Positions 1 through 19,672 of a stretch of 34,050 nucleotides of DNA are shown piece after piece. Below the pieces are notes generated by a model, which worked only from the letters and a program-made list of their open reading frames with translations, made no database searches and was not told where the DNA came from. The stretch's first letter is position 1, and every line of letters starts with the position of its first letter. The stretch lies in the IMG/VR virus record IMGVR_UViG_3300047159_000064; one strand, 5' to 3'. This stretch comes from a virus (lineage: Duplodnaviria; Heunggongvirae; Uroviricota; Caudoviricetes). The position numbers and the translations under genes are program-made.

Positions 1-165
1 AAAGCCGACGGCTGAGCCGACGGCCTAGATGGAGCGCCTGATGGATCCCGACACCACACTGTCGCTTTGGAAGAGCGACGTACTTCCTTTATACTACAGA
101 CGCAAACAAAGCCGCGCAGACATCTCTGTCAAGCGCGGCCAAGCTGATGCTGGTTTTAAGCCTTA

Positions 166-645
166 TTAGGCTTTTTTGACAGATTCTTTGTTCGAAAAGT
201 CGGACGCTTCGGCGATATCGGCCTTAATCGTCTCCTTACGAGAATTTAGCGCATCATATTCGCTGTTGAGCAACGCTTTCAAGCGATCGATGGTCGCGAT
301 GGCGGTCTTGATGCCTCCGCGAGCGGCGATATTGCCTGCCAATTCTGCGCGAAGAGAGGCGATCTCGCGACCTGCCTTTTCGTCGTAGACATCAGTCGGC
401 GATACGACGGCGATGCCCTTTGTGCATCCGGTGACGTCATACTCCAAGGCGCTGAGCGCCGAGCTGAGGATGTCGCGATCGTGGTTGAACTCGTCGATGG
501 CATGCCCTTCTAAGGTGTAATTGCCCAAAACAACAGTGGTAACATTATTAGTGAAACCGCTGTCGTCTTTGTAGCGATAAAGCTTCGTGGCGTGCGTGCG
601 CGACGTCTTGATAGCTTTCATAGTAATCTTCTTTTTCTTGCTCAT
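166..645 (-). CDS. Phage hypothetical protein
   Basis: ORF-track frame; likely start ATG 645 after AAAGGA RBS; ends TAA TAA; has a G-x-A-x(4)-D-x-YDEKAGREIA segment common in phage proteins. Confidence 0.8.
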   Translation of the reverse strand: MSKKKKITMKAIKTSRTHATKLYRYKDDSGFTNNVTTVVLGNYTLEGHAIDEFNHDRDILSSALSALEYDVTGCTKGIAVVSPTDVYDEKAGREIASLRAELAGNIAARGGIKTAIATIDRLKALLNSEYDALNSRKETIKADIAEASDFSNKESVKKA

Positions 646-680
646 AATAAGTGTTCCTTTCATGTTATTTTAACAAGATT

Positions 681-756
681 TGGTCGCGGGGGCTGGATTC
701 GAACCAGCGACCTTCTGGGTATGAACCAGGCAAGCTAACCTCTGCTCTACCCCGCA
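681..756 (-). tRNA. tRNA-Met(CAT), initiator-like
   Basis: Cloverleaf, anticodon loop TT-CAT-AC, encoded CCA; GCGGGG/CCCCGC acceptor like fMet, but U1.G72 and only two G-C pairs at the anticodon stem base. Confidence 0.85.
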
Positions 757-811
757 ATATATATTATTATACGCCGTTTCTTTTGAAACAGCCGCATAAT
801 CTCATCTGATA

Positions 812-890
812 TGGTGCCTTTCCTGGGATTCGAACCCTCAACCTAGCGGGTAGAAACCGCTTGCTCTGAATCCAATTGAGCTATGGAGGC
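812..890 (-). tRNA. tRNA-Arg(TCT), probably degenerate
   Basis: D arm and anticodon arm AGCGG-TTTCTAC-CCGCT intact; 3 acceptor and 2 T-stem mismatches caused by one 5-nt block. Confidence 0.65.
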
Positions 891-894
891 AGTT

Positions 895-970
895 TGGACT
901 CCTTGCAGAGATTTAAACTCTGATCACAGACTTAGGAGGTCTATATCTTATTCAGTTAGAAGACAAGGAG
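895..970 (-). tRNA. tRNA-Arg(CCT), AT-rich divergent
   Basis: Perfect CTCCTTG/CAAGGAG acceptor, T-CCA end, loop CT-CCT-AA; non-canonical T loop TTTAAAT and D loop. Confidence 0.7.
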
Positions 971-1081
971 ATTTTTCTAAGAAGGAACTCGCATAGGTAA
1001 TTTTGTCCATCGCACTAATGTAATCTTAGAAAAAATGCTACATGGCTTAACCACATAGCATTTTAATTGCATATTTTTTTA

Positions 1082-1180
1082 AGAAACTGGGCAATTAACT
1101 TTTGTGGAAGCCATGATCAAATGAACCAAATCTCTTTGGTTTTTTCTACTTTTAATGTTTTTTCTGTTCATTTGCATCAT
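1082..1180 (-). CDS. Possible 33-aa small ORF (MMQMNRKNIK...); the TAA stop extends to 1079
   Basis: Strong AAGGAG RBS and TATACT -10 upstream; no recognisable homology. Confidence 0.3.
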
Positions 1181-1233
1181 AGCTTTTTCTCCTTTAGTAT
1201 AACATTTTTGCAAATTTTGCATTTTTGTAACCA

Positions 1234-2067
1234 TTAACTATTTCTTTTAAATACGTGTTTACCTAAACTATCTTTATAATAACTAACTGTATCTTTAATT
1301 TGATGTCTAGTTAAGCCAGTAAATTTCTCTACTTTTGCTTGCCAACCATACTTGGTTAAATCAATTCCAGAATTTATTATTAATTCCTTTCTTCTTTCTA
1401 ATTCTTTAAAGCCAAGCTTAGTAGAAGTTATTTTTCCTTCTTTATCAACTTGCCCATTATTAATTTTTTCAATTAATTCGGCTGGCTGATGCTTATAAAT
1501 TCCTTGGTGCGAGGTAGGAGATTTGAACTCCTGCTCTATTTTAGAAGCAAGGTTTGAGCTTGCCGCGTCTACCAATTCCGCCAACCTCGCTTGTTTTTCA
1601 AGACGTTGTTGATGAGTTTTAACATTTTTGCCACAAAAATTTTCAGTAAATGCATGACAATTTGGGCAGAGAATTTGCAAATTATCTAATTGATTATTTA
1701 ATTTATCTCCATCAATATGATGTAATTCTAATGGAGCTTCTTTATCTAACCAATGTGTAATTCCGCAGCATTCACAACGTTTTTCCTTGTAGCCTTCTTT
1801 AAATAATTTTTCTTTTAAAGTGCCAGATTTAATTTTACTGCCATACTTTAGATAATTTATAGCTGGAATATATTCATGCCCACCCTGTTTCTGTTCTGCT
1901 GTTCTTTTTCCTTGTTGACCTCTGTAATTAATATTTAATTCTTTTAAATACTTAACCAATGTTTCTTGTTTACAATTTAATTGCTTTGCAATATTACAGA
2001 GTGGTTCATTTTTAGCAACTAGCTCTAATATTTTATCTTTTTGGCTTAAAATATCTTTTCTATTCAT
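1234..2067 (-). CDS. HNH homing-type endonuclease
   Basis: CECCG...ELHHIDGDKLNNQLDNLQILCPNCH zinc/HNH motif; HTH-like N-terminus; AT-rich; likely start ATG 2067 after AGGAG. Confidence 0.9.
   Translation of the reverse strand: MNRKDILSQKDKILELVAKNEPLCNIAKQLNCKQETLVKYLKELNINYRGQQGKRTAEQKQGGHEYIPAINYLKYGSKIKSGTLKEKLFKEGYKEKRCECCGITHWLDKEAPLELHHIDGDKLNNQLDNLQILCPNCHAFTENFCGKNVKTHQQRLEKQARLAELVDAASSNLASKIEQEFKSPTSHQGIYKHQPAELIEKINNGQVDKEGKITSTKLGFKELERRKELIINSGIDLTKYGWQAKVEKFTGLTRHQIKDTVSYYKDSLGKHVFKRNS
1505..1590 (-). tRNA. tRNA-Leu(CAA), nested inside the HNH ORF
   Basis: GCGAGGT/ACCTCGC acceptor, A-CCA, Leu-type D loop GGCGGAATTGGTAGACGC, GCAAG-CTCAAAC-CTTGC anticodon arm, long variable arm. 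Confidence 0.9.
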
Positions 2068-2146
2068 AAATACTCCTATTATATTAAAATTTAGCAAATA
2101 TTTGGTAGAAGTATTTACAAATTTTCAATTGCCTCTGCCAGTTGGA

Positions 2147-2443
2147 TTAGAAAGGCAGCTTCATCTCAGGCGTTCCGCCCGATACCGTCTTTATGCCCAA
2201 TCCGCACAACGTTATGCTGCTGATGTTGCTTTCCACGTAAGACGGGATGACATGGCTTTCGTCGCATACCGTTCCGTTGATCGTCATCTTCACAGACGCG
2301 CCGTCTAAGCACAGCCACTTGTTGGCCAGATCCACAGGCGTCATCGCCGAGATGATTATCTCGTAGTCCGAGAAATTTCCAGGCATCGCGTCGCCGTCTT
2401 TCATGAATACCGACGACGTTCCTTTTATGGCTATTCTGTACAT
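2147..2443 (-). CDS. Hypothetical protein
   Basis: 98-aa ORF, AAGGAG RBS, TAA stop. Confidence 0.8.
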   Translation of the reverse strand: MYRIAIKGTSSVFMKDGDAMPGNFSDYEIIISAMTPVDLANKWLCLDGASVKMTINGTVCDESHVIPSYVESNISSITLCGLGIKTVSGGTPEMKLPF

Positions 2444-2463
2444 TAGCTATCTCCTTGCGATTT

Positions 2464-2539
2464 TGGTGGGCTGAGTTAGAATCGAACTAACATGTGCGGT
2501 TTTTCAAACCGCTGCCTTGACCACATCGGCCTCCAGCCC
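2464..2539 (-). tRNA. tRNA-Phe(GAA)
   Basis: Cloverleaf, GCGGT-TTGAAAA-ACCGC, CCA. Confidence 0.85.
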
Positions 2540-2544
2540 AAATT

Positions 2545-2627
2545 TGGTGGGTCGGGAGGGATTTGAACCCTCACCCTTTCGGACACGCTTCTGAGACGTG
2601 CGCGTATACCTGTTCCGCCACCGACCC
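2545..2627 (-). tRNA. tRNA-Leu(CAG)
   Basis: Cloverleaf with long variable arm, CT-CAG-AA, CCA. Confidence 0.93.
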
Positions 2628-2635
2628 AATTTTTG

Positions 2636-2800
2636 TGTGGTTCCCAATGGGGAATCACTGAGGGTGTTCCAGAGCCAGCCTATTCCATAGAGATCGCAAC
2701 TTTTGGAAGCGGCTTATATAAGAACTCTGTAGCCGGTTTCGGATGCAATCCTCCCATGCCGGCATGGTACTCTGAACCTGGTTGCGACCAGGAAACATTC
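2636..2800 (-). ncRNA. Unnamed structured RNA spacer containing pseudoknot motif copy A
   Basis: No credible ORF; multiple hairpins; shares the AGAGTA-pseudoknot motif with three other spacer sites. Confidence 0.5.
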
Positions 2801-2804
2801 GTTT

Positions 2805-2880
2805 TGGTCCCCCGTGACGGGCTTGAACCGTCGACCCCTTGATTAAAAGTCAAGTGCTCTACCACTGAGCTAACGGAGGG
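2805..2880 (-). tRNA. tRNA-Lys(TTT)
   Basis: Canonical cloverleaf, CT-TTT-AA, CCA. Confidence 0.95.
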
Positions 2881-2889
2881 TATCGACGA

Positions 2890-2971
2890 TGGTGCCCGAA
2901 GGGAGACTCGAACTCCCACCCTCGCGGATGCGCACCTCAAGCGCACGCGTATACCATTCCGCCATTCGGGC
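2890..2971 (-). tRNA. tRNA-Leu(GAG)
   Basis: Cloverleaf, TT-GAG-GT, long variable arm, CCA. Confidence 0.93.
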
Positions 2972-2978
2972 AAATTAG

Positions 2979-3090
2979 GCCAAGCTATTAAGGTGCTCTG
3001 CCACTGAGCTACGCCCCCATGCTGTTGGGAGCGGCGAGAATCGAACTCGCGACCACCTGGTTAAAATCCAATGAAATAAGCGTTGGCTCT
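2979..3090 (-). ncRNA. YrlA/Y RNA-like RNA with a circularly permuted tRNA-like domain
   Basis: 5'->3' order: T arm (GCGAG-TTCGATT-CTCGC), loop-closed acceptor-like stem (CGCTCCC/GGGGGCG), D arm (GCTC-AGTGGCA-GAGC); ends close as GCCAA-C-GCT/AGC-TTGGC with a bulged C. Confidence 0.8.
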
Positions 3091-3091
3091 A

Positions 3092-3167
3092 TGGTGGACC
3101 TTAAGGGGCTCGAACCCTTGACCTCCTCCATGCCATGGAGGCGCTCTCCCAACTGAGCTAAAAGCCC
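3092..3167 (-). tRNA. tRNA-Ala(GGC)
   Basis: Cloverleaf, G3.U70, AT-GGC-AT, CCA. Confidence 0.93.
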
Positions 3168-3169
3168 GA

Positions 3170-3922
3170 CTCAAGAGAGCTTGCGTTCGGTCCTTAGGCC
3201 GACAACAATTCTTAGGCTCTCTCTAAACTGCTTTTTGTTCAAGCAGATGAACTCTAGCCAGCGATAGGCCGTTGGCAGACCGCCCTTTGACGTTAGGCGC
3301 TTTGTTCGCGCACGTTCTGCGAATGGGACCCTCGCCGAACGGCCTTATTTCAGGCCGCCGGGTAAACATAGCTTTGTTATCTTGTTTACCGACGCAACGT
3401 TATCCCGTGCGTCATAGGGGGAAGTTTTTACGCGCACTTCCAACGATAGGGCTATAACCATGTTGAACCCCTGATGGATTTTTTAACGACTTATCATGTC
3501 GATATCGCAGACCGGGTAAACCGGTCTTGACGTCATTGTTTTAGAATGAGCGATATTCGGCGTCGCCCATTCCAGCGGCTTAACCCTACCGCGGGACTCA
3601 TTCGCGCGAATCGCTTCGCCGAACGATATGGTTTTTAGCCTTGCGGCAAGAGGTTCAAATACCATTCCTCTGTTTTCTTCGGGTCTCTCCCGCTCCGTTC
3701 GTACGTTAGGAGACGCTGTATTAACCTGCCTTACGACAGGATATAGCCTTAGATTCGGTCTTCAGCGGATATCGCCGCCGCGGACTACCGAAAGCCGTTG
3801 CCTTATCTGCTGGCTTGCGCCTTCGATTAGACACCGCCATTACTTTCCCGCTGGCTGAAGGACGAGGCCCTTCGAACGCGCCGATCGAGCGCTTAGGCAG
3901 GCAATCAGGTTTCCCCGACCGC
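3170..3922 (-). ncRNA. Candidate large ornate ncRNA (GOLLD/ROOL-like)
   Basis: ~750 nt between tRNAs with no credible ORF; dense hairpins with GNRA loops (GGC-GCAA-GCC, GCC-GCAA-GGC, CCTGTC-GTAA-GGCAGG); family assignment from recall only. Confidence 0.5.
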
Positions 3923-3924
3923 CG

Positions 3925-3999
3925 TGGTGGAGCTTATCGGAATCGGACCGATGACCTCTTCCTTGCGAAGGAAGCGTTCTCCCCCTGAACTAAAACCCC
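3925..3999 (-). tRNA. tRNA-Ala(CGC)
   Basis: Cloverleaf, G3.U70, TT-CGC-AA, CCA; T loop variant TCCGATT. Confidence 0.88.
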
Positions 4000-4001
4000 A
4001 T

Positions 4002-4314
4002 TGGTGGAGTGACTTTCGTGAAATCACCCCGTGGAATGACTCGCTGTTTCTGCCAAGGCTACCTTGCGGCCGACTCTTGCACATCGCGACCGTTACCTCG
4101 CCTTTTCGGCTACAGCAGCTCAGCCGTCGCGCCTTTGGAGGCTCCCACAGACGGCGTGGTACTCTAATACCGCCGGTGCAACGGCGGAATTATTCTAAAC
4201 ATAACCGTGTTTCTCTCGACAGGACGATTAATTATTTATCTTTATGCGCACATGGCGTGCGCACTCGGGCTCTCACCGAGATATCCTGCATCCTGAGATA
4301 GTGATCGTAACCCC
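4002..4314 (-). ncRNA. tmRNA-sized RNA with Ala-acceptor-like ends (atypical)
   Basis: Starts GGGG, ends CTCC-A-CCA (G3.U70 possible), 313 nt, contains a pseudoknot; no canonical T arm or recognisable tag peptide. Confidence 0.4.
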
Positions 4315-4327
4315 TAGGCGTTTATGT

Positions 4328-4404
4328 TGGCGGGACCTATGGGACTCGAACCCATGACCTTCGCAGTGACAGTGCGACATTCTAACCAACTGAACTAAAA
4401 TCCC
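4328..4404 (-). tRNA. tRNA-Asp(GTC)
   Basis: Cloverleaf, CT-GTC-AC, G-CCA. Confidence 0.93.
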
Positions 4405-4672
4405 ATTTGGTTTTGAAAGTTTTCCTTCTTTACCGCCAACTCCCGTTATTCGCTGCAAGCGCTCGGCATAAGTTATAGGCGGATTTCGGCTGTTTTAACA
4501 TAAGCGACGCGACTCTGTTTTTGCAGATTATGGCTTCTGACGCATGTGCCAGAAACTCATCGCAGACTCGGCCTTATGACGCAGTTAGCATTTCGACAGC
4601 CGTTGGATCTTCGCTCAGAGCATGCCCGTAAAACGAAGCTCCTTCTCAGGTTTAACCGGTTTTCCTTCCGGA
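4405..4672 (-). ncRNA. Unnamed putative structured RNA spacer
   Basis: 268 nt non-coding; long-range stems CGGCTGT/ACAGCCG, CCGCC..AACT/AGTTGGCGG, CTTCG/CGAAG. Confidence 0.35.
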
Positions 4673-4755
4673 TGGTGTCTGAGGCCGGAATCGAACCGGC
4701 ATGGTTTCCCGTGGCATTTTAAGTGCCATGCGTATACCGGTTTCGCCACTCAGAC
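4673..4755 (-). tRNA. tRNA-Leu(TAA)
   Basis: Cloverleaf, CT-TAA-AA, long variable arm, CCA. Confidence 0.93.
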
Positions 4756-4759
4756 GTTC

Positions 4760-4835
4760 TGGTGCCCACTGACGGGTTCGAACCGCCGACCCACTGATTA
4801 CAAATCAGTAGCTCTTCCAGCTGAGCTAAGAGGGC
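4760..4835 (-). tRNA. tRNA-Thr(TGT)
   Basis: Cloverleaf, TT-TGT-AA, CCA. Confidence 0.94.
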
Positions 4836-5382
4836 AGTATGCCAAGCGCTGTTTCATTGTAGAAAAGACTTGGCCGGAAAACAAATTCAATGCGCCTGAC
4901 TTTTAGCGCTCACCTCTGCAAGGCAAGCTACACAGCGACGCATACTAGTCCGCAACAATTGTCATCTCTCTCCTGCGGACGGAATACTCTATAACCGCGT
5001 TGCAGCGCGGATATATTCTAATGGTGGGCTGCTTCTACGTCGGAGAACCTCCCAAAAGAGTGTTCATTGCCGGTCAGCCGCCATATCCTCTCTCCGCTCT
5101 TGCAAGAGCTTTGATACCTTCTGGCCTTACCGACGGCGTAGCCATCGATGCTCGGTTCGCTCCCCCGACGGCGGGGTACTCTGATAACCTGTTGCAACAA
5201 GATTACATTCGGACTCAAGGGAGGAATTAAGAGCTTGCGCTCTTATCCTCCAGCAGGGTATGGCTTTCCATTTTCGCCCGTTAACGCTCATACGGTATTG
5301 GGCAGCTTCTGCTTCTGTCTTTCGACAAGGTGTGAATGCCGTTATTGTTACCTATCATAACCCTTTCGGGATATAACCTGAC
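4836..5382 (-). ncRNA. Unnamed large structured RNA spacer with pseudoknot motif copies C and D
   Basis: ~545 nt non-coding; GNRA hairpins (CCC-GAAA-GGG, TGTC-GAAA-GACA, AAGAGC-GCAA-GCTCTT). Confidence 0.5.
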
Positions 5383-5459
5383 TGGTCCTTCAGGAGGGAT
5401 TTGAACCCCCGACCCCGGCCTTATAAGGACCATGCTCTAACCAGCTGAGCTACTGAAGG
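5383..5459 (-). tRNA. tRNA-Ile(TAT)
   Basis: CCTTCAG/CTGAAGG acceptor, A-CCA, loop CT-TAT-AA. Confidence 0.85.
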
Positions 5460-5523
5460 ATACTTAATATTATACGTTGACGTTATCAGTATTTTTTAAT
5501 GATTCGACGATATCTTATCATAT

Positions 5524-5551
5524 TGGCTTCCGAGGCTGGATTCGAACCAGC
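5524..5551 (-). pseudogene. 3' fragment (T arm + acceptor strand + CCA) of an interrupted Gln-like tRNA
   Basis: GCTGG-TTCGAAT-CCAGC-CTCGGAA-G-CCA; acceptor strand matches the 5' piece at 6548-6554. Confidence 0.7.
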
Positions 5552-5745
5552 GCTCTTTGTGCTATGAACTAAGATATATATATATATCAAACTGCTCCAC
5601 CCAGCAATATCAATAAAAGTTCCAGCTTGACCTTACCAAGCCCCTCATATTTTTGAGTTTGCAACCTCTAAATATGCATGCCACAGCTTCCAGCACTTTG
5701 GAACTAATACATTATACAATGTATTTTATTAGTTATTAGCAAATT

Positions 5746-6474
5746 TTAATTATAAAGTTCAGTTATTTTAGATACTTTATAATTTTCTAAAACATACCTT
5801 ATACACGGTTTAATATCTGTTCCATATAAAACTTGTATACTTTTTCCAGATTGTCTAACTGCAGCATATTTTAATTGGTCTTTTTCAACTTCTCGGCCCT
5901 TTATTTCAATATACTGCCCGTCAACAATATAATCTGGAGTGTAATAATGAGTTTTACCCTTATACTTGTATTTGAATCTATCAGTACAACGGCTTATTTG
6001 CTTATTATTATCTTTACAATAGATATAATAAGCTAATTCCCAAGTAGACATATGATATATTCCATCATATCAGCCACCCTTACTATGTAAATTTCTAGGA
6101 TTATCAGAATGATTATAATTTAATAGCTTTTCTGAAATAAGAGCTTTCGTTTCTTCTGATAAATGTTTTCCAGTCATTGGTCCAGGATGAGTCTCATAAA
6201 ATTTTTTCTTTCCTTCTGAGATCTTTTTAATTACATCGCTAGTTTCTGCAGTTAGTCCTTTTGCTCAATTTTTGCCCCTGCCTGTATATCTATTGTTATG
6301 ATTATTTGGACCACAATGAGCTAAATGATATTTTAAACGTGTCCAATAAAATAACTTATGACATTTTGGACACTCTACCTTAACATTAGTTGGATTTAAC
6401 TCACACGCTTGAATATGCCTTGCCAATTTCTGCTTTGTTTCAAATTCTTTGCTACAATACTTACACTTATACAT
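5746..6474 (-). CDS. Zinc-finger/NUMOD3-like/PD-(D/E)XK homing-type endonuclease, 242 aa with two in-frame TGA
   Basis: Track ORFs 6265..6474 and 5746..6051 are one frame joined by TGA at 6267-6265 and 6072-6070; CKYC..HIQAC, CPKC..HLAHC, GKHLSEETKALIS, YTPDYIVDGQYIEIKG. Confidence 0.85.
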
Positions 6475-6521
6475 AATTAAATGCTCCTTATATATTATAC
6501 ATTTAATTTAGCATATTTTTT

Positions 6522-6554
6522 AAGTCCCGTGCCTTACCGCTTGGCTACTCGGAA
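6522..6554 (-). pseudogene. 5' half of an interrupted Gln-like tRNA
   Basis: TTCCGAG-TA-GCC-AAGCGGTAA-GGC-A-CGGGA-CTT, then AT-rich sequence. Confidence 0.7.
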
Positions 6555-6567
6555 ATAATTCTATCGG

Positions 6568-6900
6568 CTAGAAGCTCATCTTCCTGAGCTCTTCCGCCAA
6601 ACGATTCTTTCTGGCTTTAAGCGTGTCTATCTCATGGTCTATGCCGCGTATCTTGCTTTTTATCTTATTCATATCTATAATCAGCTTCGCACGCTCCAGA
6701 TCGCCGTCGCTGGATATTCGCTCGAACTCTGGAGCGTCGCTGACGTACAGCCACGGATTGCTGCTGCGGCCGCCCATGTCTATGTAATCGTCGCCGAAGT
6801 AATCTACGCAGCGCTTCGGCTTCTTGAACACTTTGATTATCTCTGAGCCGGAAGCGACCATATCGCCTTTGCTCAGGCTCATAAGCTCTTCTATCGTCAT
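6568..6900 (-). CDS. Hypothetical protein with C-terminal coiled coil
   Basis: 110-aa ORF, AAAGGAG RBS, TAG stop. Confidence 0.8.
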   Translation of the reverse strand: MTIEELMSLSKGDMVASGSEIIKVFKKPKRCVDYFGDDYIDMGGRSSNPWLYVSDAPEFERISSDGDLERAKLIIDMNKIKSKIRGIDHEIDTLKARKNRLAEELRKMSF

Positions 6901-6922
6901 AGGTCGCTCCTTTCTATTGCGC

Positions 6923-6998
6923 TGGTGCCGATTGGTGGATTCGAACCACCGACCTATCGCTTACGAGGCGATTGCACTTCCAGCTGTGCTAAATCGGC
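6923..6998 (-). tRNA. tRNA-Thr(CGT)
   Basis: Cloverleaf, CT-CGT-AA, CCA. Confidence 0.93.
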
Positions 6999-7000
6999 AG

Positions 7001-7075
7001 TGGTGGGCGCTGAGGGGTTCGAACCCACAACCCCCTCGGTGTAAACGAGGTGCTCTCCCGTTGAGCTAAGCGCCC
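7001..7075 (-). tRNA. tRNA-Val(TAC)
   Basis: Cloverleaf, TT-TAC-AC, CCA. Confidence 0.92.
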
Positions 7076-7194
7076 ATGCTTTTTATTATACGCCGCGGAT
7101 CGCGCTATTCCCGATAAAAATAAACGGGCCGCTTTCCAGCAGAGCCCGTTTATCGCGCTTTCGCGCATCGACATGCTTTTATCTTAAGTATGCT

Positions 7195-7498: not shown

Positions 7499-7693
7499 TT
7501 ATCTGCCTGATTGCTTTTCAGCTTCGGCGACAGACGCTTCGTATCATCCTATAAGCTCTTCGCAGGATTCGGCTATGAGACGCGCTTCCGTCAATTTGAT
7601 AACGGAAGGCGCGTCTAAGTCATATTCTTCTTTGAGCCTATCAGCGCGTTTTAGCAGAAGCGCGACCGAAGCGGCCTCGCTCTGCTTAGGCAT
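7499..7693 (-). CDS. Small helical protein (64 aa) with in-frame TGA at codon 50
   Basis: ATG overlaps the end of the upstream gene; frame continues ...EELIG[TGA]YEASVAEAEKQSGR-TAA. Confidence 0.5.
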
Positions 7694-9650
7694 TAAGCTT
7701 GCCCCCGTTTACCAAGGCGACAAGCTTCTCGAGCTCCCAGGTTCTCACGACGGTCTGGCCTTCCTTAGGAGTATACGTGTTGCTGAACACGATGGTGGCG
7801 TCTTCCGGCTTGACCACGCTGTATTCGCTGCGCAAATCGGCGACCAAGCCGCAGTTGAACTCGAGCGACGAATCGCTCATGTAGCGCATTACGACTTTGA
7901 GATCCTCAGGGCAGAGCACAAGGTTGTTGGCGTCGCGGATCATGTTGAGCATGACCACTTCGTTCTTCTCCAAGTCGAACGCGAACGCGATGCAGGCACG
8001 AGAATCGCCCTTGACCTGGAACTGGAACTCGATGTTCTTCGGATCCCAGGCTCTCGTCGCCAGGTTCTCTTTGTTCTGATAGCCGCAGAAGATCTCGCCT
8101 TCGTTGAGATTGGAAGCGAAGCCGTTAAAGGCCTGAATGACGTACTTATAGCCCTTGGCCTTGAGCTCAGAGAGCTTGAGATCGTAGTATTCGGATCCTG
8201 CGGCGTCGCGGCAGTCGCCTGAGAACATGATGGATAAGCCAAACGGCTTAGCCGCATAGTTATAGAAGCCGATCGTCGACACGTCGCCGTTGTCCTTGAC
8301 CAAAATCAAGGAAGAGTCGATGTCGAAAGCGTCTTTCCAATAAACGAAAGTGCGGATGTTGTCGTATCGGCACGGCAAGCGCGATCCGGTAGGAACGACG
8401 TCGATTCCTTTGCCGCCGGTCGAGGTGTTAGAAGGAATGCCGATCTTGTAGAATTCGTCAGACACGTAAGATTTGCCGATAGACGGCATAGCCGCGAACG
8501 CGTCCTTGACCTTCTGGCCGACCAAGTCGTGCAAAAGCTTCTTCGTCGAATCGTTGAGCTTGGATTTTCTCCAGGTGCTCTCGTAATCCGTTTCGATGTG
8601 GCGCTTCATGCGGTTGTTCTTAAAGAACGCGAACGTGCGAGGTCCTTCTTTGTCTTCAGACAAAGTAGAGACCATCTGGTAGAGAACGATAGGATTCTTC
8701 GCCGGAATCAAGTCTAAGATCTTGCCCGCTTCGATAGGATTGGCTCTCGAAAGCAAGTATTTGATGTTTCTCTGAAGCAACGAGCCATTGTGCGCGTAAA
8801 CCTGAGCGGCGCCGTAAACGTCTCCAGCGCGCATCTTGGCTTCGGCGAGCTTGTACGGAGAATTCGCGTTCGTCGCGACATTGGCCTTGACGCCGCAAAG
8901 GCTGCCGATCTTATTGTAGTATTTAGCCTGCTTTTTGGTGAGCGGGCAATCGTGGACCAAAGGATAGCATTCCTTGATGAGCTCTAGGTCGGTGCCTGAA
9001 TTCGCTTTCTTGTAATCGAATTTCTTGCAGTCGCCAAACATCGAAACAGAGAGCTTGACTAAGTCTTTCTTATCTAAGAAGCGCGCGAATTTGACGTTCT
9101 TTCTCAAAAGAGCAAAAACGTTTTCGCGGCACTTGATTTCGGTGCCTTTGTAATAGCCGTTTTCGAACAGCCATTCGAATTCGGCCTGCTCCTGGAGCCC
9201 AAACGGACGGGTATAGGCGCAATAAGAATCTGCCACGCCGCAAAGAATCTTCGTGGCTTCGTCCATCGTGACGATCTGGAACTCGCGGAGCTTCAATTCG
9301 TCGCCGACTTTGTATTCCGGCAGATCCTTGGCGTAGAGCTTGATGCGGTCGTAATAGCCGACGGTCTCCACCGCCAAATAAGAGACGAGCTGCTCGACGA
9401 GCAATTCGTGTCTAGTGTAGTATTTGGTGTCCTGCGGATTGGCGTAGAAGCTCGCCGGAACGTTGAGCTTGAACTCTCCGGAGATGATTTTGACCATCCC
9501 TTCGCTCAAAAGCTCAGGATGATTAACGACGACCCCGAAGTTGGCCAAAAGATACGCGTTGTAATAAGCGCTCTTTGCCTTATCGATTTGCGCGCCGTCC
9601 TCCAATAAGTAGTGGCGAGCAAACAGCAACTTGTCCATCGTAGATTCCAT
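7686..9650 (-). CDS. Large alpha-helical + C-terminal TerD-like domain protein (candidate RNA-binding partner of the Y-like RNAs)
   Basis: C-terminal RTFVYW...DIDSSL...FSGD...GSEYYDL...FCGY pattern resembles TerD-like folds; N-terminal ~400 aa look helical; no vWA DxSxS motif. Confidence 0.7.
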   Translation of the reverse strand: MESTMDKLLFARHYLLEDGAQIDKAKSAYYNAYLLANFGVVVNHPELLSEGMVKIISGEFKLNVPASFYANPQDTKYYTRHELLVEQLVSYLAVETVGYYDRIKLYAKDLPEYKVGDELKLREFQIVTMDEATKILCGVADSYCAYTRPFGLQEQAEFEWLFENGYYKGTEIKCRENVFALLRKNVKFARFLDKKDLVKLSVSMFGDCKKFDYKKANSGTDLELIKECYPLVHDCPLTKKQAKYYNKIGSLCGVKANVATNANSPYKLAEAKMRAGDVYGAAQVYAHNGSLLQRNIKYLLSRANPIEAGKILDLIPAKNPIVLYQMVSTLSEDKEGPRTFAFFKNNRMKRHIETDYESTWRKSKLNDSTKKLLHDLVGQKVKDAFAAMPSIGKSYVSDEFYKIGIPSNTSTGGKGIDVVPTGSRLPCRYDNIRTFVYWKDAFDIDSSLILVKDNGDVSTIGFYNYAAKPFGLSIMFSGDCRDAAGSEYYDLKLSELKAKGYKYVIQAFNGFASNLNEGEIFCGYQNKENLATRAWDPKNIEFQFQVKGDSRACIAFAFDLEKNEVVMLNMIRDANNLVLCPEDLKVVMRYMSDSSLEFNCGLVADLRSEYSVVKPEDATIVFSNTYTPKEGQTVVRTWELEKLVALVNGGKLNA

Positions 9651-9702
9651 AATCGGTTTTTCCTTCCGCAGTTATCCTGCTTTATCTTTTTATTTATATA
9701 AA

Positions 9703-10110
9703 GGGCGTCTCAGGATTCTTGAACCAGCTAAATTAATTCCAATTTTTTGAAATAAGCATGGTTTCGACCCGAGACGCCCAATACATAATTATATTGGCCT
9801 GGCTATTGATTTTTGGGAAAAAAATTATTTGAAATAAGCCCAGGCTCTCGGGAATTTATTTAACGTGCTTTTCCTTGGCACGTTATATTATACGCCGATA
9901 TCTTAAATTTTTAGCGACAAAAAAATCCTCGGCTTTTCGTCGAGGACTATTTTCATAATAGGCTTGGCTATTGTAGCCAGCCGTTTTACGGGTTGGCTAT
10001 TTCATTTTCCATATGAATTTTTGAAATAAGCACAAGCTCTAAATCTTACAGAATAATGGCCTAACTAATTGGTATTGCATTCAATGTGTAATGAAATAAG
10101 TATAGGCTCT
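9703..10110 (-). repeat. Four tandem bulged-stem RNA motifs (GCTTATTTCA...TAGC)
   Basis: Copies at 10059-10110, 9961-10040, 9797-9848 and 9703-9779 with covarying outer stems; same motif at 2979-3090. Confidence 0.85.
9919..9946 (-). terminator. Rho-independent terminator after motif copies 1-2
   Basis: TCCTCG-ACGAAAAGC-CGAGGA followed by a T7 tract. Confidence 0.75.
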
Positions 10111-10115
10111 AAATT

Positions 10116-10123
10116 ATTATACG
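10116..10123 (-). promoter_or_regulatory. CGTATAAT -10 element (representative of 10 copies)
   Basis: Also at 766, 5469, 7085, 9887, 10718, 13372, 14315, 16563 and 23658, each upstream of a gene or RNA. Confidence 0.8.
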
Positions 10124-10791: not shown

Positions 10792-11136
10792 CTATGCGCT
10801 ATGGGCGCCAGAATCGGCTTTCCTGTCTTCATCGTCGTCGTCTTCGACGTCGACTGAGTCTTTGGCCAAGGTGACGCACATTCTACCGTCGTCTACGCAG
10901 AACCCGCTTATCTTGCGGCTTAGAAGCTCCGGGCTAAGCACCGTGTCCAGCGGATCCAAGTCATCGGCGAAATCGGAAATGCCGAAATCGAACCAGTGAT
11001 TGAGATCGTCGGCGTTATAGTAGATTCTCACGATAGAAGAGCTTTGCTTGACGGTGCCGTTCTTGTCAAGCTGAACCTCTTTGAACATGAAATACGACAG
11101 AAATACGTCTAAGCTAACAGTCGCTGTCTTATCCAT
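10792..11136 (-). CDS. Hypothetical protein, acidic tail
   Basis: 114 aa; TAATG overlap with the upstream gene. Confidence 0.8.
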   Translation of the reverse strand: MDKTATVSLDVFLSYFMFKEVQLDKNGTVKQSSSIVRIYYNADDLNHWFDFGISDFADDLDPLDTVLSPELLSRKISGFCVDDGRMCVTLAKDSVDVEDDDDEDRKADSGAHSA

Positions 11137-13349
11137 TATCGTTCGCCTCCCAGGAACCGGTCTCTCAGACTGATGATATCAGTCTTATAAGGATATTCCT
11201 TGGTCTCCTTGTTTCTGTCTTTATCATACAGCTTTCTGCAGAATCCGTAAAACGCGTTCTCCAATGAGTTCTGCAATGCGCCAGTTTTGGCGTAATAGCC
11301 GCAGCGAAGCGTCTGGTCGGCGACGCTGCGAAGTTTCTTCCATTGGTTGTAATAGCCTGTTTTGCACTTGGTCATGAAGCCATCGGAATCGACGAAAACG
11401 AAGCCTTCGATGTATCTGCCTTCGTATTTGTAGTCTTCGCTCTGCATGCCGGAGTAGACGCTCAAGAACTGATCCCAGTCCTTTAGTTCGAACGCTTTCT
11501 CTTTGACGCTGCAGCCGATCTTGTTATCGGCGAAATCCTTAAGATCGCTGTACGGAACTGTGCCGTATTCAAGCTTGTTGTAGATGCCGTCAAGCAATAC
11601 GATGTTGTTTTTGGCGTACTTGATGATATGAGGGTCATGCTCGACGTCCTCGCACTCGAACACCAGCGAGAGATCTGAGCCGCTTTCGTGATAATAGCGA
11701 AGGTACTTAAGCAAATTAGCATAATAAGGCTCAAGCTGCGCTCTGATGTATCCGGCGAAATCTCCGCCCGTCGTCGACTTAGACGCGATAAACAGGCTGT
11801 CGTTTCTGTAATCATAGGACACGATGGCCAAGAATCCGTTCTCCTTGACGTACGCGGTCACCGGGAATTTAAGCTTCGTGCGCAAAGCGCAGAGCTTAGT
11901 CTCAGCTGTTTCGTCGATGCGGAAAAACTTCTCGTAAGAGCGCGCCATGATTTTCTTATTCGTGACATCGATGAACAAGCCTCTGGCGAGAATGGTCTGC
12001 TTGTTCCAATTGCCCTGCCAGAAAGCGTCGCGGGTGAAATTGAAAGACGAAACGTCGGCGTCGAGGTGCTTTTCCTGGACGCAGTCGTTGTTGCGCAAAT
12101 ACGCGATGGCGTCTTCAACCGTGTCGACCTTGCGCTGCGTCGTGTCTTCGCTCTCTGTCACCGGCTGGCAGTCGTCAAGCTCGACGACGGTCCATTTCAG
12201 GTCCGCGGTCAATTCTACCAAACGGAGCTTGCCGCCGAATTCGACGCCGCCTTCGAGATTGAACACCCTGTCGGCGATCTGCGTCGGATCGTCGAAAACG
12301 TTGCGATGCGCATGAACCTGGAACTGATTGTCTTTGGAATCGCGCATCCAGACTTCGGCGATGGTCTGGCTGTCTTTGACGTCTCCGACGCCGTTGATGA
12401 AATCTTTCGTAGGAAGATACACCAAATTGTCTTTCATCGACGGAATGCCGCCGTGGCAAGCCAAAATCTCCAACCCGTTGTAAGTGAAATGCGACATCTG
12501 GCGGCATTTGCGATAGAGCATTCTCGCGTCTTTCTCGCTGATCCCGCCGGCGACGAGCTGCGGCTTCGTCTTCTGCTCGAATTCCAAAGAGGCGGCTTTC
12601 GCCGAATTGCCGAAGTCGCGGATGCTGACGTCGTGATTGCCTTCGAGCAGGCAGACGTTAGGCTTATTCATGATAGAAATGAGCCAGCGAACGACCTCGG
12701 CGTTCTGGTTGCCGCGATCAACGTAATCGCCTAAAAAGATATACTCGGTGTCGTCGGCCAAGCCGTTTTTGAAATACTGCATGGCTGTGTCGTAGCAGCC
12801 GCGGAGGCTTCCGACGAAAACGATTTTCTTGTACTGCGACAGATCGAAGCTTTTCTCAAGAACGGCGTCAAGCTCGTCAGGCTTAATAACCTTGATGCTG
12901 CCTGGTACCTTCTGAGTGGCGAATCTAGCGTAGATGTTCTCGATGCTGTCATCTGGCACCCATTTGTATTCCGGGCGCATTTTGTTGCGCTTAAGGCATT
13001 CGTCGAGCGGCACGCCGGTGAAATCTACGCAGAAAACATTGTACCGATACTGTTCGGCCAAATCTTTGTATTGCTGGATGTCTTTGGTCTTAGACGCGGT
13101 GGCGTCGATGACCGTGAACTCGCCTTTGCTCATGCGGTAATCGAGCATCTCGAAGAGAAGCTTCCATACCTCTGTCTCAACCTCGCGGTTGCGGCCGATC
13201 GAAAACGTGCCGTCGGCTTTCATGTCGATGGAGCTGCAAAGCACGCGAAGATCGTCTGGGCACAGCGTGTACTGCTCGAGATGATGCTCTTTGACCCAGG
13301 TCGATTTTCCTGCGCCAGGCGCCCCGCGAAGAATAAGCAATGTTCTCAT
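11136..13349 (-). CDS. Pnkp-like polynucleotide kinase / metallophosphoesterase / Rnl1-type RNA ligase fusion
   Basis: N-terminal GAPGAGKST P-loop and DAT motif; GDYVDRG and GNHD calcineurin-like motifs; C-terminal KENGF (KxxG) and EGFV..KCK ligase motifs. Confidence 0.92.
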   Translation of the reverse strand: MRTLLILRGAPGAGKSTWVKEHHLEQYTLCPDDLRVLCSSIDMKADGTFSIGRNREVETEVWKLLFEMLDYRMSKGEFTVIDATASKTKDIQQYKDLAEQYRYNVFCVDFTGVPLDECLKRNKMRPEYKWVPDDSIENIYARFATQKVPGSIKVIKPDELDAVLEKSFDLSQYKKIVFVGSLRGCYDTAMQYFKNGLADDTEYIFLGDYVDRGNQNAEVVRWLISIMNKPNVCLLEGNHDVSIRDFGNSAKAASLEFEQKTKPQLVAGGISEKDARMLYRKCRQMSHFTYNGLEILACHGGIPSMKDNLVYLPTKDFINGVGDVKDSQTIAEVWMRDSKDNQFQVHAHRNVFDDPTQIADRVFNLEGGVEFGGKLRLVELTADLKWTVVELDDCQPVTESEDTTQRKVDTVEDAIAYLRNNDCVQEKHLDADVSSFNFTRDAFWQGNWNKQTILARGLFIDVTNKKIMARSYEKFFRIDETAETKLCALRTKLKFPVTAYVKENGFLAIVSYDYRNDSLFIASKSTTGGDFAGYIRAQLEPYYANLLKYLRYYHESGSDLSLVFECEDVEHDPHIIKYAKNNIVLLDGIYNKLEYGTVPYSDLKDFADNKIGCSVKEKAFELKDWDQFLSVYSGMQSEDYKYEGRYIEGFVFVDSDGFMTKCKTGYYNQWKKLRSVADQTLRCGYYAKTGALQNSLENAFYGFCRKLYDKDRNKETKEYPYKTDIISLRDRFLGGER

Positions 13350-18376: not shown

Positions 18377-19672
18377 CTAAAAGTCAGCCGTTTCTTTGTC
18401 AGGCCTGAAATCCCTGAACACCGGGAACCTCAGGCTGCTGCCGCCGTCGGCGTTAGTCGTCTCCTCGAAATACTGCACCTCTATTATCGTGCCTAGGTAT
18501 CTGCCTTTGTTGGCCCAGATATCGGATCTCTGCTCGTCAGAGAACCCTGATCCGACCTTCACGGTCTGCCCGTCTTTGTATCTGACCAAAGCCGCGCCAA
18601 GCGTCCCAGCCAGCCTTCCTGAGCCTTCTTCGAATCCGGTCAGCTCCATGTCGTACGATTTCATCAGCTTCACCTTAAGCAGATCCGACGTGCGCTTGAA
18701 TCTGTACGGCGCCGAGCATACGTTTATCATGACGCCTTCTTCGCCGTGCGCCACGTTGTAGTTAAGCCATTTGATTATCTGAGCCGCGTCGTCGCCTCTG
18801 TAAAGCACGGGAAGCAGATCGAAGAACACGTGCTTCGACGAGCCGAAGAACGAATCAAGGCTCTTTCTGCGATCGTCGTACGGCGTGTCGCAGCTCTGAG
18901 ACACGAACTCGTCGGCAGTCAGCATGTCGAACACGAGCATCTTGACGCCGTGCTTGACGCCGTCTTTGCGCGTTATCATCATCGTCCGCTTGTACTGATC
19001 CTTGCTAGTCAGCGCGCCTTTGTCCAGCAGCGTTATCTCGCCGTCTAGGCAGATGTCGTCTTCAGGCGACGCCTTAAGCTCTTCTTCCAGATCGACGAGC
19101 CCTTCGTAGCTTTGGCCTGCCCTTGTGTAGAAGCTGACTTCGCCTTTGCGCTTGAGCGCTATGATTCGCCCGCCGTCTATCTTCGTAGTAAGCGCGAACG
19201 TCTTGCCTTCGACGCTCTCAGGCCGCTCGAAGTATTTGTTCGCCAGCTGGACCGAGAACGTAGGCACCAATCCCGGCAGCGCCTTGTTTATGCCGTCTGC
19301 GCCTATGCCGAGCGGAAGGTTCTTCGATATAAGCTTCCTGAAGAAGCATACCAACTCTTGATCTCCGCCCAGGACGGAGGACTCGAATTCGCGCAGCGAC
19401 GCCACGATGGCGTCAGATCCGCCGTTGTTGGCTTTGAGGAAGTCCAGCGCATCGAGCGTCGACTTCAGATGCGCAGCCGGTACAGCCGCGGTATCCTTCG
19501 CGGCTTTCTTGTCCGATATGCCCGTTACGACGTAAGGGTTAAAAAGAAAAGACAGGCATCTCACGACGTCGCTGTCATTCTTGTATTTCGCCAAAACGGC
19601 CTGTTTGCTGATCTGCGAATTGCTCGCCGTCATCTCGTCTGCGAACGCCTTGAATCTCTTGAGTGTTTCCAT
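18377..19672 (-). CDS. ATP-dependent DNA ligase
   Basis: KIDGGR (motif I), LDGEI, VFDML, EGVMI, LLKVK, C-terminal OB fold ending SLRFPVF. Confidence 0.95.
   Translation of the reverse strand: METLKRFKAFADEMTASNSQISKQAVLAKYKNDSDVVRCLSFLFNPYVVTGISDKKAAKDTAAVPAAHLKSTLDALDFLKANNGGSDAIVASLREFESSVLGGDQELVCFFRKLISKNLPLGIGADGINKALPGLVPTFSVQLANKYFERPESVEGKTFALTTKIDGGRIIALKRKGEVSFYTRAGQSYEGLVDLEEELKASPEDDICLDGEITLLDKGALTSKDQYKRTMMITRKDGVKHGVKMLVFDMLTADEFVSQSCDTPYDDRRKSLDSFFGSSKHVFFDLLPVLYRGDDAAQIIKWLNYNVAHGEEGVMINVCSAPYRFKRTSDLLKVKLMKSYDMELTGFEEGSGRLAGTLGAALVRYKDGQTVKVGSGFSDEQRSDIWANKGRYLGTIIEVQYFEETTNADGGSSLRFPVFRDFRPDKETADF

What the first reader, a model, noticed from the sequence alone, without database searches (positions are those of the whole stretch)
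7686..10123. Candidate new RNP system: Y RNA-like repeats plus a helical/TerD protein in place of Ro60
Seen: four copies of (AGA)G-N4-5-[bulged nt]-(G/A)CUUAUUUCA...UAG(C/U)-N4-5 lie immediately upstream of the 654-aa gene, with covarying stems GCCUA/UAGGC, GCUUG/CAAGC, GCCUG/CAGGC and AACCA/UGGUU. A fifth copy (GCCAA/UUGGC) at 2979-3090 carries a YrlA-like permuted tRNA domain. Copies 1-2 have their own CGTATAAT promoter and terminator. Copies 3-4 follow a second promoter in the gene's 5' leader. Established: bacterial Y RNA genes lie next to Ro60 (TROVE-vWA) genes, Ro60 binds a bulged terminal helix, and both associate with RNA repair. This protein has no vWA MIDAS motif, and the RNA consensus differs from the GNCGAA-type Y RNA motif as I recall it. 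Inference: a Ro60-analogous ring protein with its own Y-like RNA family, autoregulated through leader copies and acting with the phage RNA ligases.
Basis: partly seen in the sequence, partly recalled or inferred. Interest (0 to 1): 0.92.

Follow-up and report, generated by a model that had tools for sequence, protein, structure and literature searches.

The report
Y-RNA-like handle RNAs with TerD protein
A large phage carries five small structured RNAs with one conserved bulged "handle" stem, four upstream of an uncharacterised 654-aa gene, and this RNA-gene pairing recurs in every phage relative and most gut and rumen bacterial relatives checked, pointing to an undescribed counterpart of the Ro60/Y-RNA particle.

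Summary
All five copies exist as described, and all fold into the same helix: 5 bp, a one-base bulge, then 3 bp, followed by CUUAUUUC. Copy 5 (2977-3090) carries a YrlA-type tRNA-like module (Rfam RF02553, 39.5 bits, below its cut-off of 69).

The motif is not chance. In 26 phage loci, 89 of 90 5' motifs on the gene strand have the matching 3' strand, against 2 of 90 in a control. The stems covary. A longer version lies upstream of 25-28%-identical bacterial homologues (65 of 83 loci). There, G.U pairs outnumber A.C 90 to 4, so selection acts on RNA of the gene's strand.

My best reading (0.65) is a Ro60-analogous particle in which the handle binds this protein and the variable inserts display tRNA parts. 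Binding is untested. The proposed link to the RNA ligase is not conserved. This scan has noted the same system on other DNA at least 22 times. I found no paper describing it.

The parts
7686..9650 (-). Gene for the 654-aa protein (P0001). It has a helical N-domain, a TerD-fold domain and a small C-terminal domain.
   Evidence: The frame is intact. There is no Pfam or PDB sequence match. More than 900 cluster representatives are related. The AlphaFold model has a mean pLDDT of 85.
8391..9650 (-). N-terminal helical domain (about residues 1-420).
7890..8369 (-). TerD-fold beta-sandwich domain (residues 428-587).
10116..10123 (-). Promoter-like CGTATAAT 5 nt upstream of copy 1.
   Evidence: Read from the sequence. 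The same CGTATAAT precedes handle RNAs in L001. A consensus scan lists overlapping sites.
10057..10110 (-). Handle RNA copy 1 (short form, stem GCCUA/UAGGC).
   Evidence: R1 scores it 57.4 bits, but it was a training sequence.
9960..10040 (-). Handle RNA copy 2 (stem GCUUG/CAAGC), with two internal hairpins.
   Evidence: The fold has a z-score of -3.5.
9919..9946 (-). Intrinsic-terminator-like hairpin followed by seven U, after copy 2.
   Evidence: Read from the sequence. The scan lists the hairpin on the other strand.
9887..9894 (-). Second CGTATAAT promoter-like site, at the start of the gene's leader.
   Evidence: Read from the sequence. Contigs from RNA libraries that cover the gene end at 9867 and 9826.
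9795..9848 (-). Handle RNA copy 3 (stem GCCUG/CAGGC, bulge G), in the leader.
9703..9779 (-). Handle RNA copy 4. The inner handle (AACCA/UGGUU, 9722-9765) sits inside a 12-bp outer helix, and the element ends 53 nt before the ATG.
   Evidence: An outer helix is also the rule in the bacterial version.
2977..3090 (-). Handle RNA copy 5 (long form, stem GCCAA/UUGGC). It carries a YrlA-type tRNA-like module and lies between tRNA-Ala and tRNA-Leu.
   Evidence: Rfam YrlA positions 23-87 match at 39.5 bits. The consensus fold of 18 long forms shows covariation. tRNA positions are.

Best explanation
The five elements are genes for small non-coding RNAs of one family. Each closes with a conserved handle: a 5-bp helix, a one-base bulge (usually U), three more pairs (R:Y, C:G, U:A), then the invariant strand UAUUUC. 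The handle is the docking site for the 654-aa protein encoded next to them. That protein is a helical nucleic-acid-binding domain fused to a TerD-fold domain. Together they would form a ribonucleoprotein built on the plan of Ro60-Y RNA.

The variable inserts are the working ends. Long forms display a tRNA body without an anticodon arm, as in YrlA. Many short forms display an anticodon-loop-like hairpin. This would let the particle recruit or decoy enzymes that recognise tRNA.

Copies 1-2 are made from their own promoter and terminator. Copies 3-4 are part of the gene's 5' leader, where binding by the protein could also feed back on its own synthesis.

Shown here: the RNA structure, selection at the RNA level, the RNA-gene linkage, and the absence of Ro60. 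Inferred: the binding itself, the function of the inserts, and autoregulation.
For: 1. Linkage in phages. All 25 phage loci that encode a homologue carry the motif on the gene's strand, with one copy directly upstream.
2. Closure. 89 of 90 5' motifs have the matching 3' strand within 200 nt, against 2 of 90 when the same stems are tested at random places. The opposite strand has 2 motifs and 0 closures.
3. Covariation. There are 22 stem types among 58 distinct units. On alignment A5, 99.6% of cells are paired, with 43 double-change cells against 9.0 in shuffles and a collapse when the partner is slid. The bulge-adjacent R:Y pair is A:U in 23 and G:C in 12 sequences.
4. Deep conservation. Bacterial homologues at 25-28% identity occur in 286 species genomes. 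Upstream they carry the same inner helix plus UAYUUC inside a conserved internal loop (AGCUAR / YRAUAUC) and an outer helix. 119 of 136 are closed on the gene strand against 0 of 29 on the other, in 65 of 83 loci, with 58 helix types and 47 units carrying a T-loop.
5. RNA-level selection. Non-Watson-Crick pairs are G.U or U.G 90 times and A.C or C.A 4 times.
6. YrlA-type module. It is present in copy 5 and in 18 aligned long forms, with covarying T, acceptor and D stems.
7. No canonical partner. TROVE is absent from five phage genomes that are 95-100% complete and from five bacterial isolate genomes, while the controls were positive.
8. Protein. The N-domain resembles predicted models named as ZorC EH-domain proteins, and ZorC binds nucleic acid through that domain (PMC11946911). 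Several arginines are invariant across the family (R148, R294, R338, R433).
9. Expression. Contigs from RNA libraries cover the gene and the leader copies.
Against: - No experiment or computation here shows that the protein binds the RNA. Adjacency and co-conservation are indirect evidence.
- Handle RNAs also lie tens of kilobases from the gene in complete relatives, and here in the tRNA array, so their partner need not be encoded next door.
- 18 of 83 bacterial loci showed no closed unit under my criteria.
- TerD domains are not known RNA binders.
- The RNA-library contigs cannot prove transcription or show RNA ends, and none covers copies 1-2.
Confidence: 0.65

Rival explanations
1. The elements are purely cis-acting leader structures that control expression of the downstream gene (attenuation, processing or translation control), not free small RNAs of a particle.
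For: In nearly every locus at least one copy lies directly upstream on the same strand. In bacteria the last copy ends 10-60 nt before the ribosome-binding site, with no terminator between. Here copies 3-4 lie between promoter 2 and the ATG, and RNA-library contigs join them to the gene.
Against: Copies 1-2 have their own promoter-like site and terminator. Copy 5 lies 4.6 kb downstream of the gene's end, inside a tRNA array. Relatives carry copies downstream of the gene and tens of kilobases away. A leader does not need interchangeable tRNA-like inserts. Canonical Y RNAs are likewise co-transcribed with rsr (my own knowledge of the Salmonella rsr-yrlBA-rtcBA operon).
Confidence: 0.12
2. The RNAs are real trans-acting tRNA mimics but work with another partner, such as a host tRNA enzyme, a nuclease or a ribosome-associated factor. 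The neighbouring protein would have a different role.
For: Handles occur far from the gene. The tRNA-like and anticodon-loop-like inserts suggest tRNA-binding enzymes as clients. TerD domains have no known RNA-binding role.
Against: The conserved part of the RNA is the handle, not the insert. The handle tracks this one gene from jumbo phages to Clostridia and Coriobacteriia at 25% protein identity, while other neighbours are not conserved.
Confidence: 0.12
3. The repeats are a selfish or processing-related repeat family, for example miniature mobile elements or RNase recognition sites in tRNA-array transcripts, that merely accumulates in intergenic DNA.
For: The elements are multi-copy, intergenic and often near tRNA genes.
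Against: The stems change by compensatory substitutions while the loop strand stays invariant. Only one strand is used. G.U pairs greatly outnumber A.C. The position upstream of one gene family is kept across phyla. Copies within a genome differ in insert and stem, so they are not recent transposition products.
Confidence: 0.05
4. The repeats act as double-stranded DNA operators (inverted repeats) for a transcription factor.
Against: The arms are separated by 20-130 variable bases, including a tRNA-like fold. Pairing tolerates G.U 90 times against A.C 4 times, which only makes sense for RNA of the gene's strand. The motif is almost absent from the other strand.
Confidence: 0.02

Closest known systems
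Bacterial and phage Ro60 (Rsr) with the Y RNAs YrlA/YrlB (Rfam RF02553; Chen et al. 2014, PMC4201824)
   Same: Small RNAs are encoded next to their presumed protein partner. The 5' and 3' ends pair in a conserved helix with a bulge. The inner module mimics a tRNA, with a T arm, a closed acceptor stem and a D arm in the same permuted order. There are several RNAs per locus, and the system occurs in bacteria and large phages.
   Different: The conserved strand is CUUAUUUC, not GNCGAA(N)G. The full Rfam model scores below its cut-off. The protein has no TROVE or vWA match and carries a TerD-fold domain. The genomes checked lack Ro60 altogether. Many members carry short, non-tRNA-body inserts.
phiRo60 with Yrl1/Yrl2 of Thermus phage phiLo (PDB 9L5Y; PMC12135203)
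   Different: phiRo60 is a canonical HEAT-ring plus vWA protein, and its RNAs carry the CGAA motif. The structural match here is within the noise for helical repeats.
TerD family (tellurite-resistance proteins; PDB 2KXT, 2QZ7, 3IBZ)
   Different: Classical TerD proteins are about 190-aa single-domain proteins of Ter operons with no RNA link. Here the domain is fused to a 420-aa helical domain and does not reach Pfam's TerD model.
ZorC (EH-signature protein of type I Zorya; PMC11946911)
   Same: The whole N-domain aligns to a predicted model named as a ZorC EH-domain protein (E 7.7e-10). ZorC binds nucleic acid through that domain.
   Different: ZorC binds double-stranded DNA without sequence preference and works with ZorAB/ZorD in defence. 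No Zorya genes are nearby, no Pfam EH_Signature match was found, and the comparison is between two predictions.

Membership tests
YrlA Y RNA (Rfam RF02553) | tRNA-like module: T arm, acceptor stem closed by a loop, and D arm, in permuted order. | tested here: met
   Copy 5 aligns to model positions 23-87. 18 long forms share covarying T, acceptor and D stems.
YrlA Y RNA (Rfam RF02553) | The whole-model score reaches Rfam's gathering cut-off (69 bits). | tested here: not met
   Copy 5 scores 39.5 bits, and the terminal-stem parts of the model (positions 1-22 and 88-114) are not matched. There is no hit at gathering level in the window or in 12 bacterial loci.
YrlA Y RNA (Rfam RF02553) | Ro60-binding motif GNCGAA(N0-1)G in the stem (PMC4201824). 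| tested here: not met
   The conserved strand is (R)CUUAUUUC in all five copies and in 58 units from relatives.
YrlA Y RNA (Rfam RF02553) | Encoded beside a TROVE-domain (Ro60) gene. | tested here: not met
   The neighbouring gene has no TROVE match. No TROVE is found in five complete related phage genomes or five bacterial carrier genomes. The window's own full genome is not held.
Ro60 / TROVE proteins | Sequence match to the TROVE domain (PF05731). | tested here: not met
   No Pfam family matches P0001 at E up to 1 or any of 44 diverse members at E up to 0.01. Profiles of the family find no Ro60 chain in the PDB.
Ro60 / TROVE proteins | C-terminal vWA domain with a MIDAS site. | tested here: not met
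Ro60 / TROVE proteins | HEAT-repeat ring fold. | tested here: inconclusive
Ro60 / TROVE proteins | Binds the conserved Y RNA stem. | not testable with these tools
   This needs pull-down or gel-shift experiments.
TerD family | TerD beta-sandwich fold. | tested here: met
TerD family | Match to Pfam TerD (PF02342). | tested here: not met
   There is no Pfam hit at E up to 1. Atlas neighbours carry PF02342 in only 22% of the members of one cluster.
ZorC-like EH-signature domain | Fold of the ZorC core domain, with the conserved Glu/His motif. | tested here: inconclusive
   The comparison of two predicted models gives E 7.7e-10 and TM 0.55/0.49 over the whole N-domain. The solved ZorC is not among the PDB rows. 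Nearly invariant H351, E353 and E357 exist, but they were not mapped onto the motif.

The most novel reading that the evidence does not exclude
A second, Ro60-independent lineage of Y-RNA-type particles exists in hundreds of gut and rumen Firmicutes and Actinobacteria and in jumbo phages. One protein (a ZorC-like or Ro-like helical domain plus TerD) grips a universal RNA handle. The inserts are swappable tRNA parts: elbow and acceptor bodies, and anticodon loops such as CUUUUAA (Lys-UUU), CUGCAAA and UUUGGGA. These would serve as baits or decoys for tRNA-targeting enzymes such as anticodon nucleases, modification enzymes or repair enzymes in phage-host conflict.
Probability: 0.35. Interest if true: 0.9.

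Novelty: new variant of a known kind. Interest (0 to 1): 0.8.

Why it matters
Ro60 and Y RNAs are so far the only known particle of this kind. Why Y RNAs mimic tRNA is still an open question.

A parallel system has a different protein, a different handle and a whole set of displayed tRNA parts. It is present in cultivable rumen and gut bacteria and in phages, which makes the question testable in new hosts. It would show whether "a handle plus a tRNA-like bait" is a general design in RNA quality control or in phage-host conflict. It would also give the TerD fold its first link to RNA biology.

If confirmed, it would also assign a function to a large protein family that has no annotation: more than 900 clusters at 50% identity, found in 286 bacterial species genomes.

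Tried and rejected
- **Rfam.** A scan of the four-copy region at E up to 10 gave only chance hits (MIR7504, sau-41). The MIR7504 hit merely reflects the long outer hairpin of copy 4.
- **Sequence searches of the protein.** Pfam, PHROGs and PDB-sequence searches gave nothing useful. phrog_33734 is of unknown function.
- **Family profiles against PDB sequences.** These gave only spurious short hits (Protein A three-helix bundle, UvrD), with no Ro60 and no TerD.
- **Foldseek with the N-domain.** Searches of the PDB, Swiss-Prot models and the ESM Atlas showed no Ro60. This is not evidence that the folds differ.
- **Model R1 on distant loci.** R1, built from short phage units, found nothing in the three distant bacterial loci L026-L028. 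Their motif had to be found by reading the sequence and by pattern search.
- **Wide alignment A2.** It was too diverse for the genome scan, so the bacterial sub-alignment A6 was used instead.
- **Reverse search.** A search of viral contigs with a handle pattern returned only two short contigs without the gene. This is too little to test whether the RNA ever occurs without the protein.
- **Raw-read run X21.** No read could be laid on the stretch, so RNA ends and strand could not be seen.
- **The window's own genome.** It is not held.
- **RNA repair as a conserved partner.** The idea was tested and dropped.
- **ARAGORN's tRNA-Leu(caa) at 1505-1590.** It lies inside the HNH-endonuclease frame and has no Rfam support, so I treat it as doubtful.
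Full report
**What is in the window**

The gene at 7686-9650 on the minus strand is an intact 654-codon frame. Upstream on the same strand, the sequence reads in this order:
- a CGTATAAT box (10116-10123);
- copy 1 (10057-10110);
- copy 2 (9960-10040);
- a hairpin followed by seven U (9919-9946);
- a second CGTATAAT (9887-9894);
- a small hairpin (9862-9884);
- copy 3 (9795-9848);
- copy 4 (inner part 9722-9765, enclosed by a 12-bp outer helix 9768-9779/9703-9714);
- the ATG at 9650.

A fifth copy lies at 2977-3090, between tRNA-Ala and tRNA-Leu of a 16-gene tRNA array.

All copies share this layout: AGA, a 5-bp stem, one bulged base, R, then CUUAUUUC(A). On the 3' side: UAG, Y, the complementary 5 bases, then C. 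The minimum-free-energy fold of every copy contains this helix. The pattern AGAG-N6-CTTATTTC occurs exactly four times, all on this strand.

**Is it more than chance, and is it RNA?**

I fetched 25 phage loci that encode homologues of the protein (46-60% identity). Every one carries the same motif on the gene's strand, with one copy directly upstream and usually more upstream or downstream.
- Of 90 5' motifs, 89 have the matching 3' strand within 200 nt. When the same stems are tested at random places, 2 of 90 do. The opposite strand has 2 motifs, neither closed.
- The 58 distinct units use 22 different stem sequences.
- On a MAFFT alignment of 35 short units, 99.6% of cells in the 8-pair helix are standard pairs. 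There are 43 double changes against 9.0 in shuffles, and pairing collapses when the partner strand is slid by one to three columns.
- The purine after the bulge covaries with the pyrimidine after UAG (A:U 23, G:C 12, never mismatched). The helix is therefore 5 bp, a bulge, then 3 bp, a bulged terminal helix of the kind Ro60 recognises in Y RNAs.

**Two size classes**

Short units (50-90 nt) carry unrelated inserts. Long units (about 112-145 nt) carry a T arm with GGUUCGA, an acceptor stem closed by a loop, and a D arm with AGCUCAGUGG. All of these stems covary.

Copy 5 of the window is a long unit. It matches Rfam YrlA over the tRNA-like core only: positions 23-87, 39.5 bits, against a cut-off of 69. 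The terminal-stem parts of YrlA, which hold the Ro60-binding GNCGAA motif (PMC4201824), are not matched. CUUAUUUC stands there instead.

Among the short units, 14 of 39 contain a hairpin with a 7-nt loop of anticodon-loop form (Y-U-NNN-R-A), against 1.7 expected. CUUUUAA occurs five times, and CUGCAAA and UUUGGGA three times each. In the window, only copy 3 met that test, and weakly (UUCCCAA on a 3-bp stem). Copy 2 has AUGGAAA on a 5-bp stem and copy 5 has a small AUUUUAA hairpin, but both begin with A and fall outside the tested pattern.

**Deep conservation**

An exhaustive search found 939 cluster representatives related to the protein, down to about 25% identity. A scan of species genomes found relatives in 286 species. 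They are mostly Lachnospiraceae, Eubacterium, Oscillospiraceae, Christensenellaceae and Coriobacteriia, and they include cultured isolates.

Upstream of these chromosomal genes lie one to four RNAs with this architecture: an outer helix, AGCUAR, a 7-bp inner helix ending in R-C-U, then UAYUUC, the insert, the inner strand, YRAUAUC, and the outer strand.
- 119 of 136 5' motifs are closed on the gene strand, against 0 of 29 on the other strand.
- 65 of 83 loci have at least one closed unit.
- There are 58 inner-helix types.
- The outer helix is fully paired in 75 of 119 units, against 4 of 119 in a control.
- 47 units carry a T-loop.

When units are located by their loop motifs rather than by pairing, the non-Watson-Crick pairs are G.U or U.G 90 times and A.C or C.A 4 times. 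This asymmetry shows that selection acts on an RNA of the gene's strand. Copy 4 of the window, with its outer helix, links the phage and bacterial forms. Rfam 15 has no family for these RNAs at gathering level.

**The protein**

There is no Pfam match for P0001 or for any of 44 diverse members, and no PDB sequence match.

The AlphaFold model is confident (pLDDT 85).
- The helical N-domain was folded alone (pLDDT 86.5). Its best match is a predicted-structure cluster named as a ZorC EH-domain protein (E 7.7e-10, TM 0.55/0.49 over the whole domain). ZorC binds nucleic acid through that domain (PMC11946911).

So the protein is not a demonstrable TROVE protein, and it has no vWA domain. Whether its N-domain is a remote Ro60 relative or a ring remains open.

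**No canonical partner**

Five related phage genomes of 220-237 kb, 95-100% complete, each have one copy of this gene and several handle RNAs but no TROVE match. The control genomes were positive. Five bacterial isolate genomes that carry the gene also lack TROVE. The tRNA-mimic RNAs therefore cannot be working with Ro60 in these organisms.

**Expression**

The window's DNA occurs in wastewater and bioreactor-sludge runs. In three metatranscriptome runs, contigs of a 95-99% identical relative cover the gene and run upstream through copy 4. One of them also runs through copy 3. They end at 9826 and 9867, just downstream of the second CGTATAAT. None covers copies 1-2.

This fits a leader that starts at promoter 2. 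However, contigs cannot prove transcription or show ends, and small RNAs would not be captured in such libraries.

**RNA repair link**

The window has a 737-aa kinase-phosphatase-RNA ligase (AAA_33, Metallophos, RNA_lig_T4_1) at 11136-13349. One close relative's contig has the same. The enzyme is absent from 22 of 25 phage loci, from four of five complete relatives and from all 83 bacterial loci. It is a lineage-specific neighbour, not part of the system.

**Reading**

The most economical explanation is a ribonucleoprotein on the Ro60-Y RNA plan. The invariant handle is the protein's binding site, and the variable inserts are displayed tRNA parts. Leader copies give the protein a way to sense its own level. 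I put this at 0.65.

The main rivals are a purely cis-regulatory leader (0.12) and RNAs that work with another partner (0.12). A selfish repeat (0.05) and a DNA operator (0.02) are unlikely.

**Relation to earlier work**

I found no paper that links TerD-domain proteins to Y-like or tRNA-like RNAs. The jumbo-phage survey PMC7824862 mentions TROVE with tRNA-like partners and TerD only separately.

This scan has reported the same system on other DNA at least 22 times. My tests were run independently and agree with those reports.

Noticed in passing
window 1-7100 (-): A dense array of about 16 tRNA genes lies on the minus strand. ARAGORN and Rfam disagree at the margins. Rfam alone. ARAGORN alone calls tRNA-Arg(cct) at 895-970 and tRNA-Leu(caa) at 1505-1590. 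The latter lies inside the HNH frame and is doubtful.
   Followed up: partly
window 1234-2097 (-): A 287-aa frame with weak HNH endonuclease matches, below Pfam's cut-off for HNH_3 and at it for HNH, sits inside the tRNA array. It may be a homing-type endonuclease.
   Followed up: no
window 11136-13349 (-): A 737-aa fusion of a P-loop kinase, a metallophosphatase and a T4 Rnl1-type RNA ligase (bacterial Pnkp-like RNA repair enzyme). It is present in only a minority of related phages.
   Followed up: yes
window 18377-19672 (-): An ATP-dependent DNA ligase (DNA_ligase_A_M plus an OB domain). A homologue is seen in 3 of the 25 related phage loci.
   Followed up: partly
window 9703-9779 (-): Copy 4 sits inside a 12-bp outer helix (GGGCGUCUCGGG / CCUGAGACGCCC). 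An outer helix is also the rule upstream of the bacterial homologues. The element ends 53 nt before the start codon, so it could affect translation or processing of the mRNA.
   Followed up: partly
short handle units in L003, L005, L007, L008, L012, L013, L018, L020, L023, L025; window copy 3 only weakly: Many short inserts are hairpins with 7-nt loops of anticodon-loop form (CUUUUAA, CUGCAAA, UUUGGGA, CUGGAAA): 14 of 39 units against 1.7 expected. They look like displayed anticodon arms.
   Followed up: partly
window 10116-10123 and 9887-9894 (-); L001 2566-2573 and 2714-2721: The octamer CGTATAAT recurs just upstream of handle RNAs in this phage and in a 52%-identical relative. It may be a phage-specific extended -10 promoter.
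   Followed up: no
window 7577-7616: A 14-bp GC-rich hairpin lies about 70 nt downstream of the gene's stop codon, without a U tract. It may be a processing or termination structure.
   Followed up: no
G002:C1:202999-204972: The homologue in one 95%-complete relative is read through one in-frame TAA.
   Followed up: no
L030 6904-6998: A c-di-GMP-I riboswitch lies about 1.9 kb downstream of the bacterial homologue in a Eubacterium MAG. GGDEF genes flank the homologue in L026. There may be a loose link to c-di-GMP signalling, or this may be coincidence.
   Followed up: no
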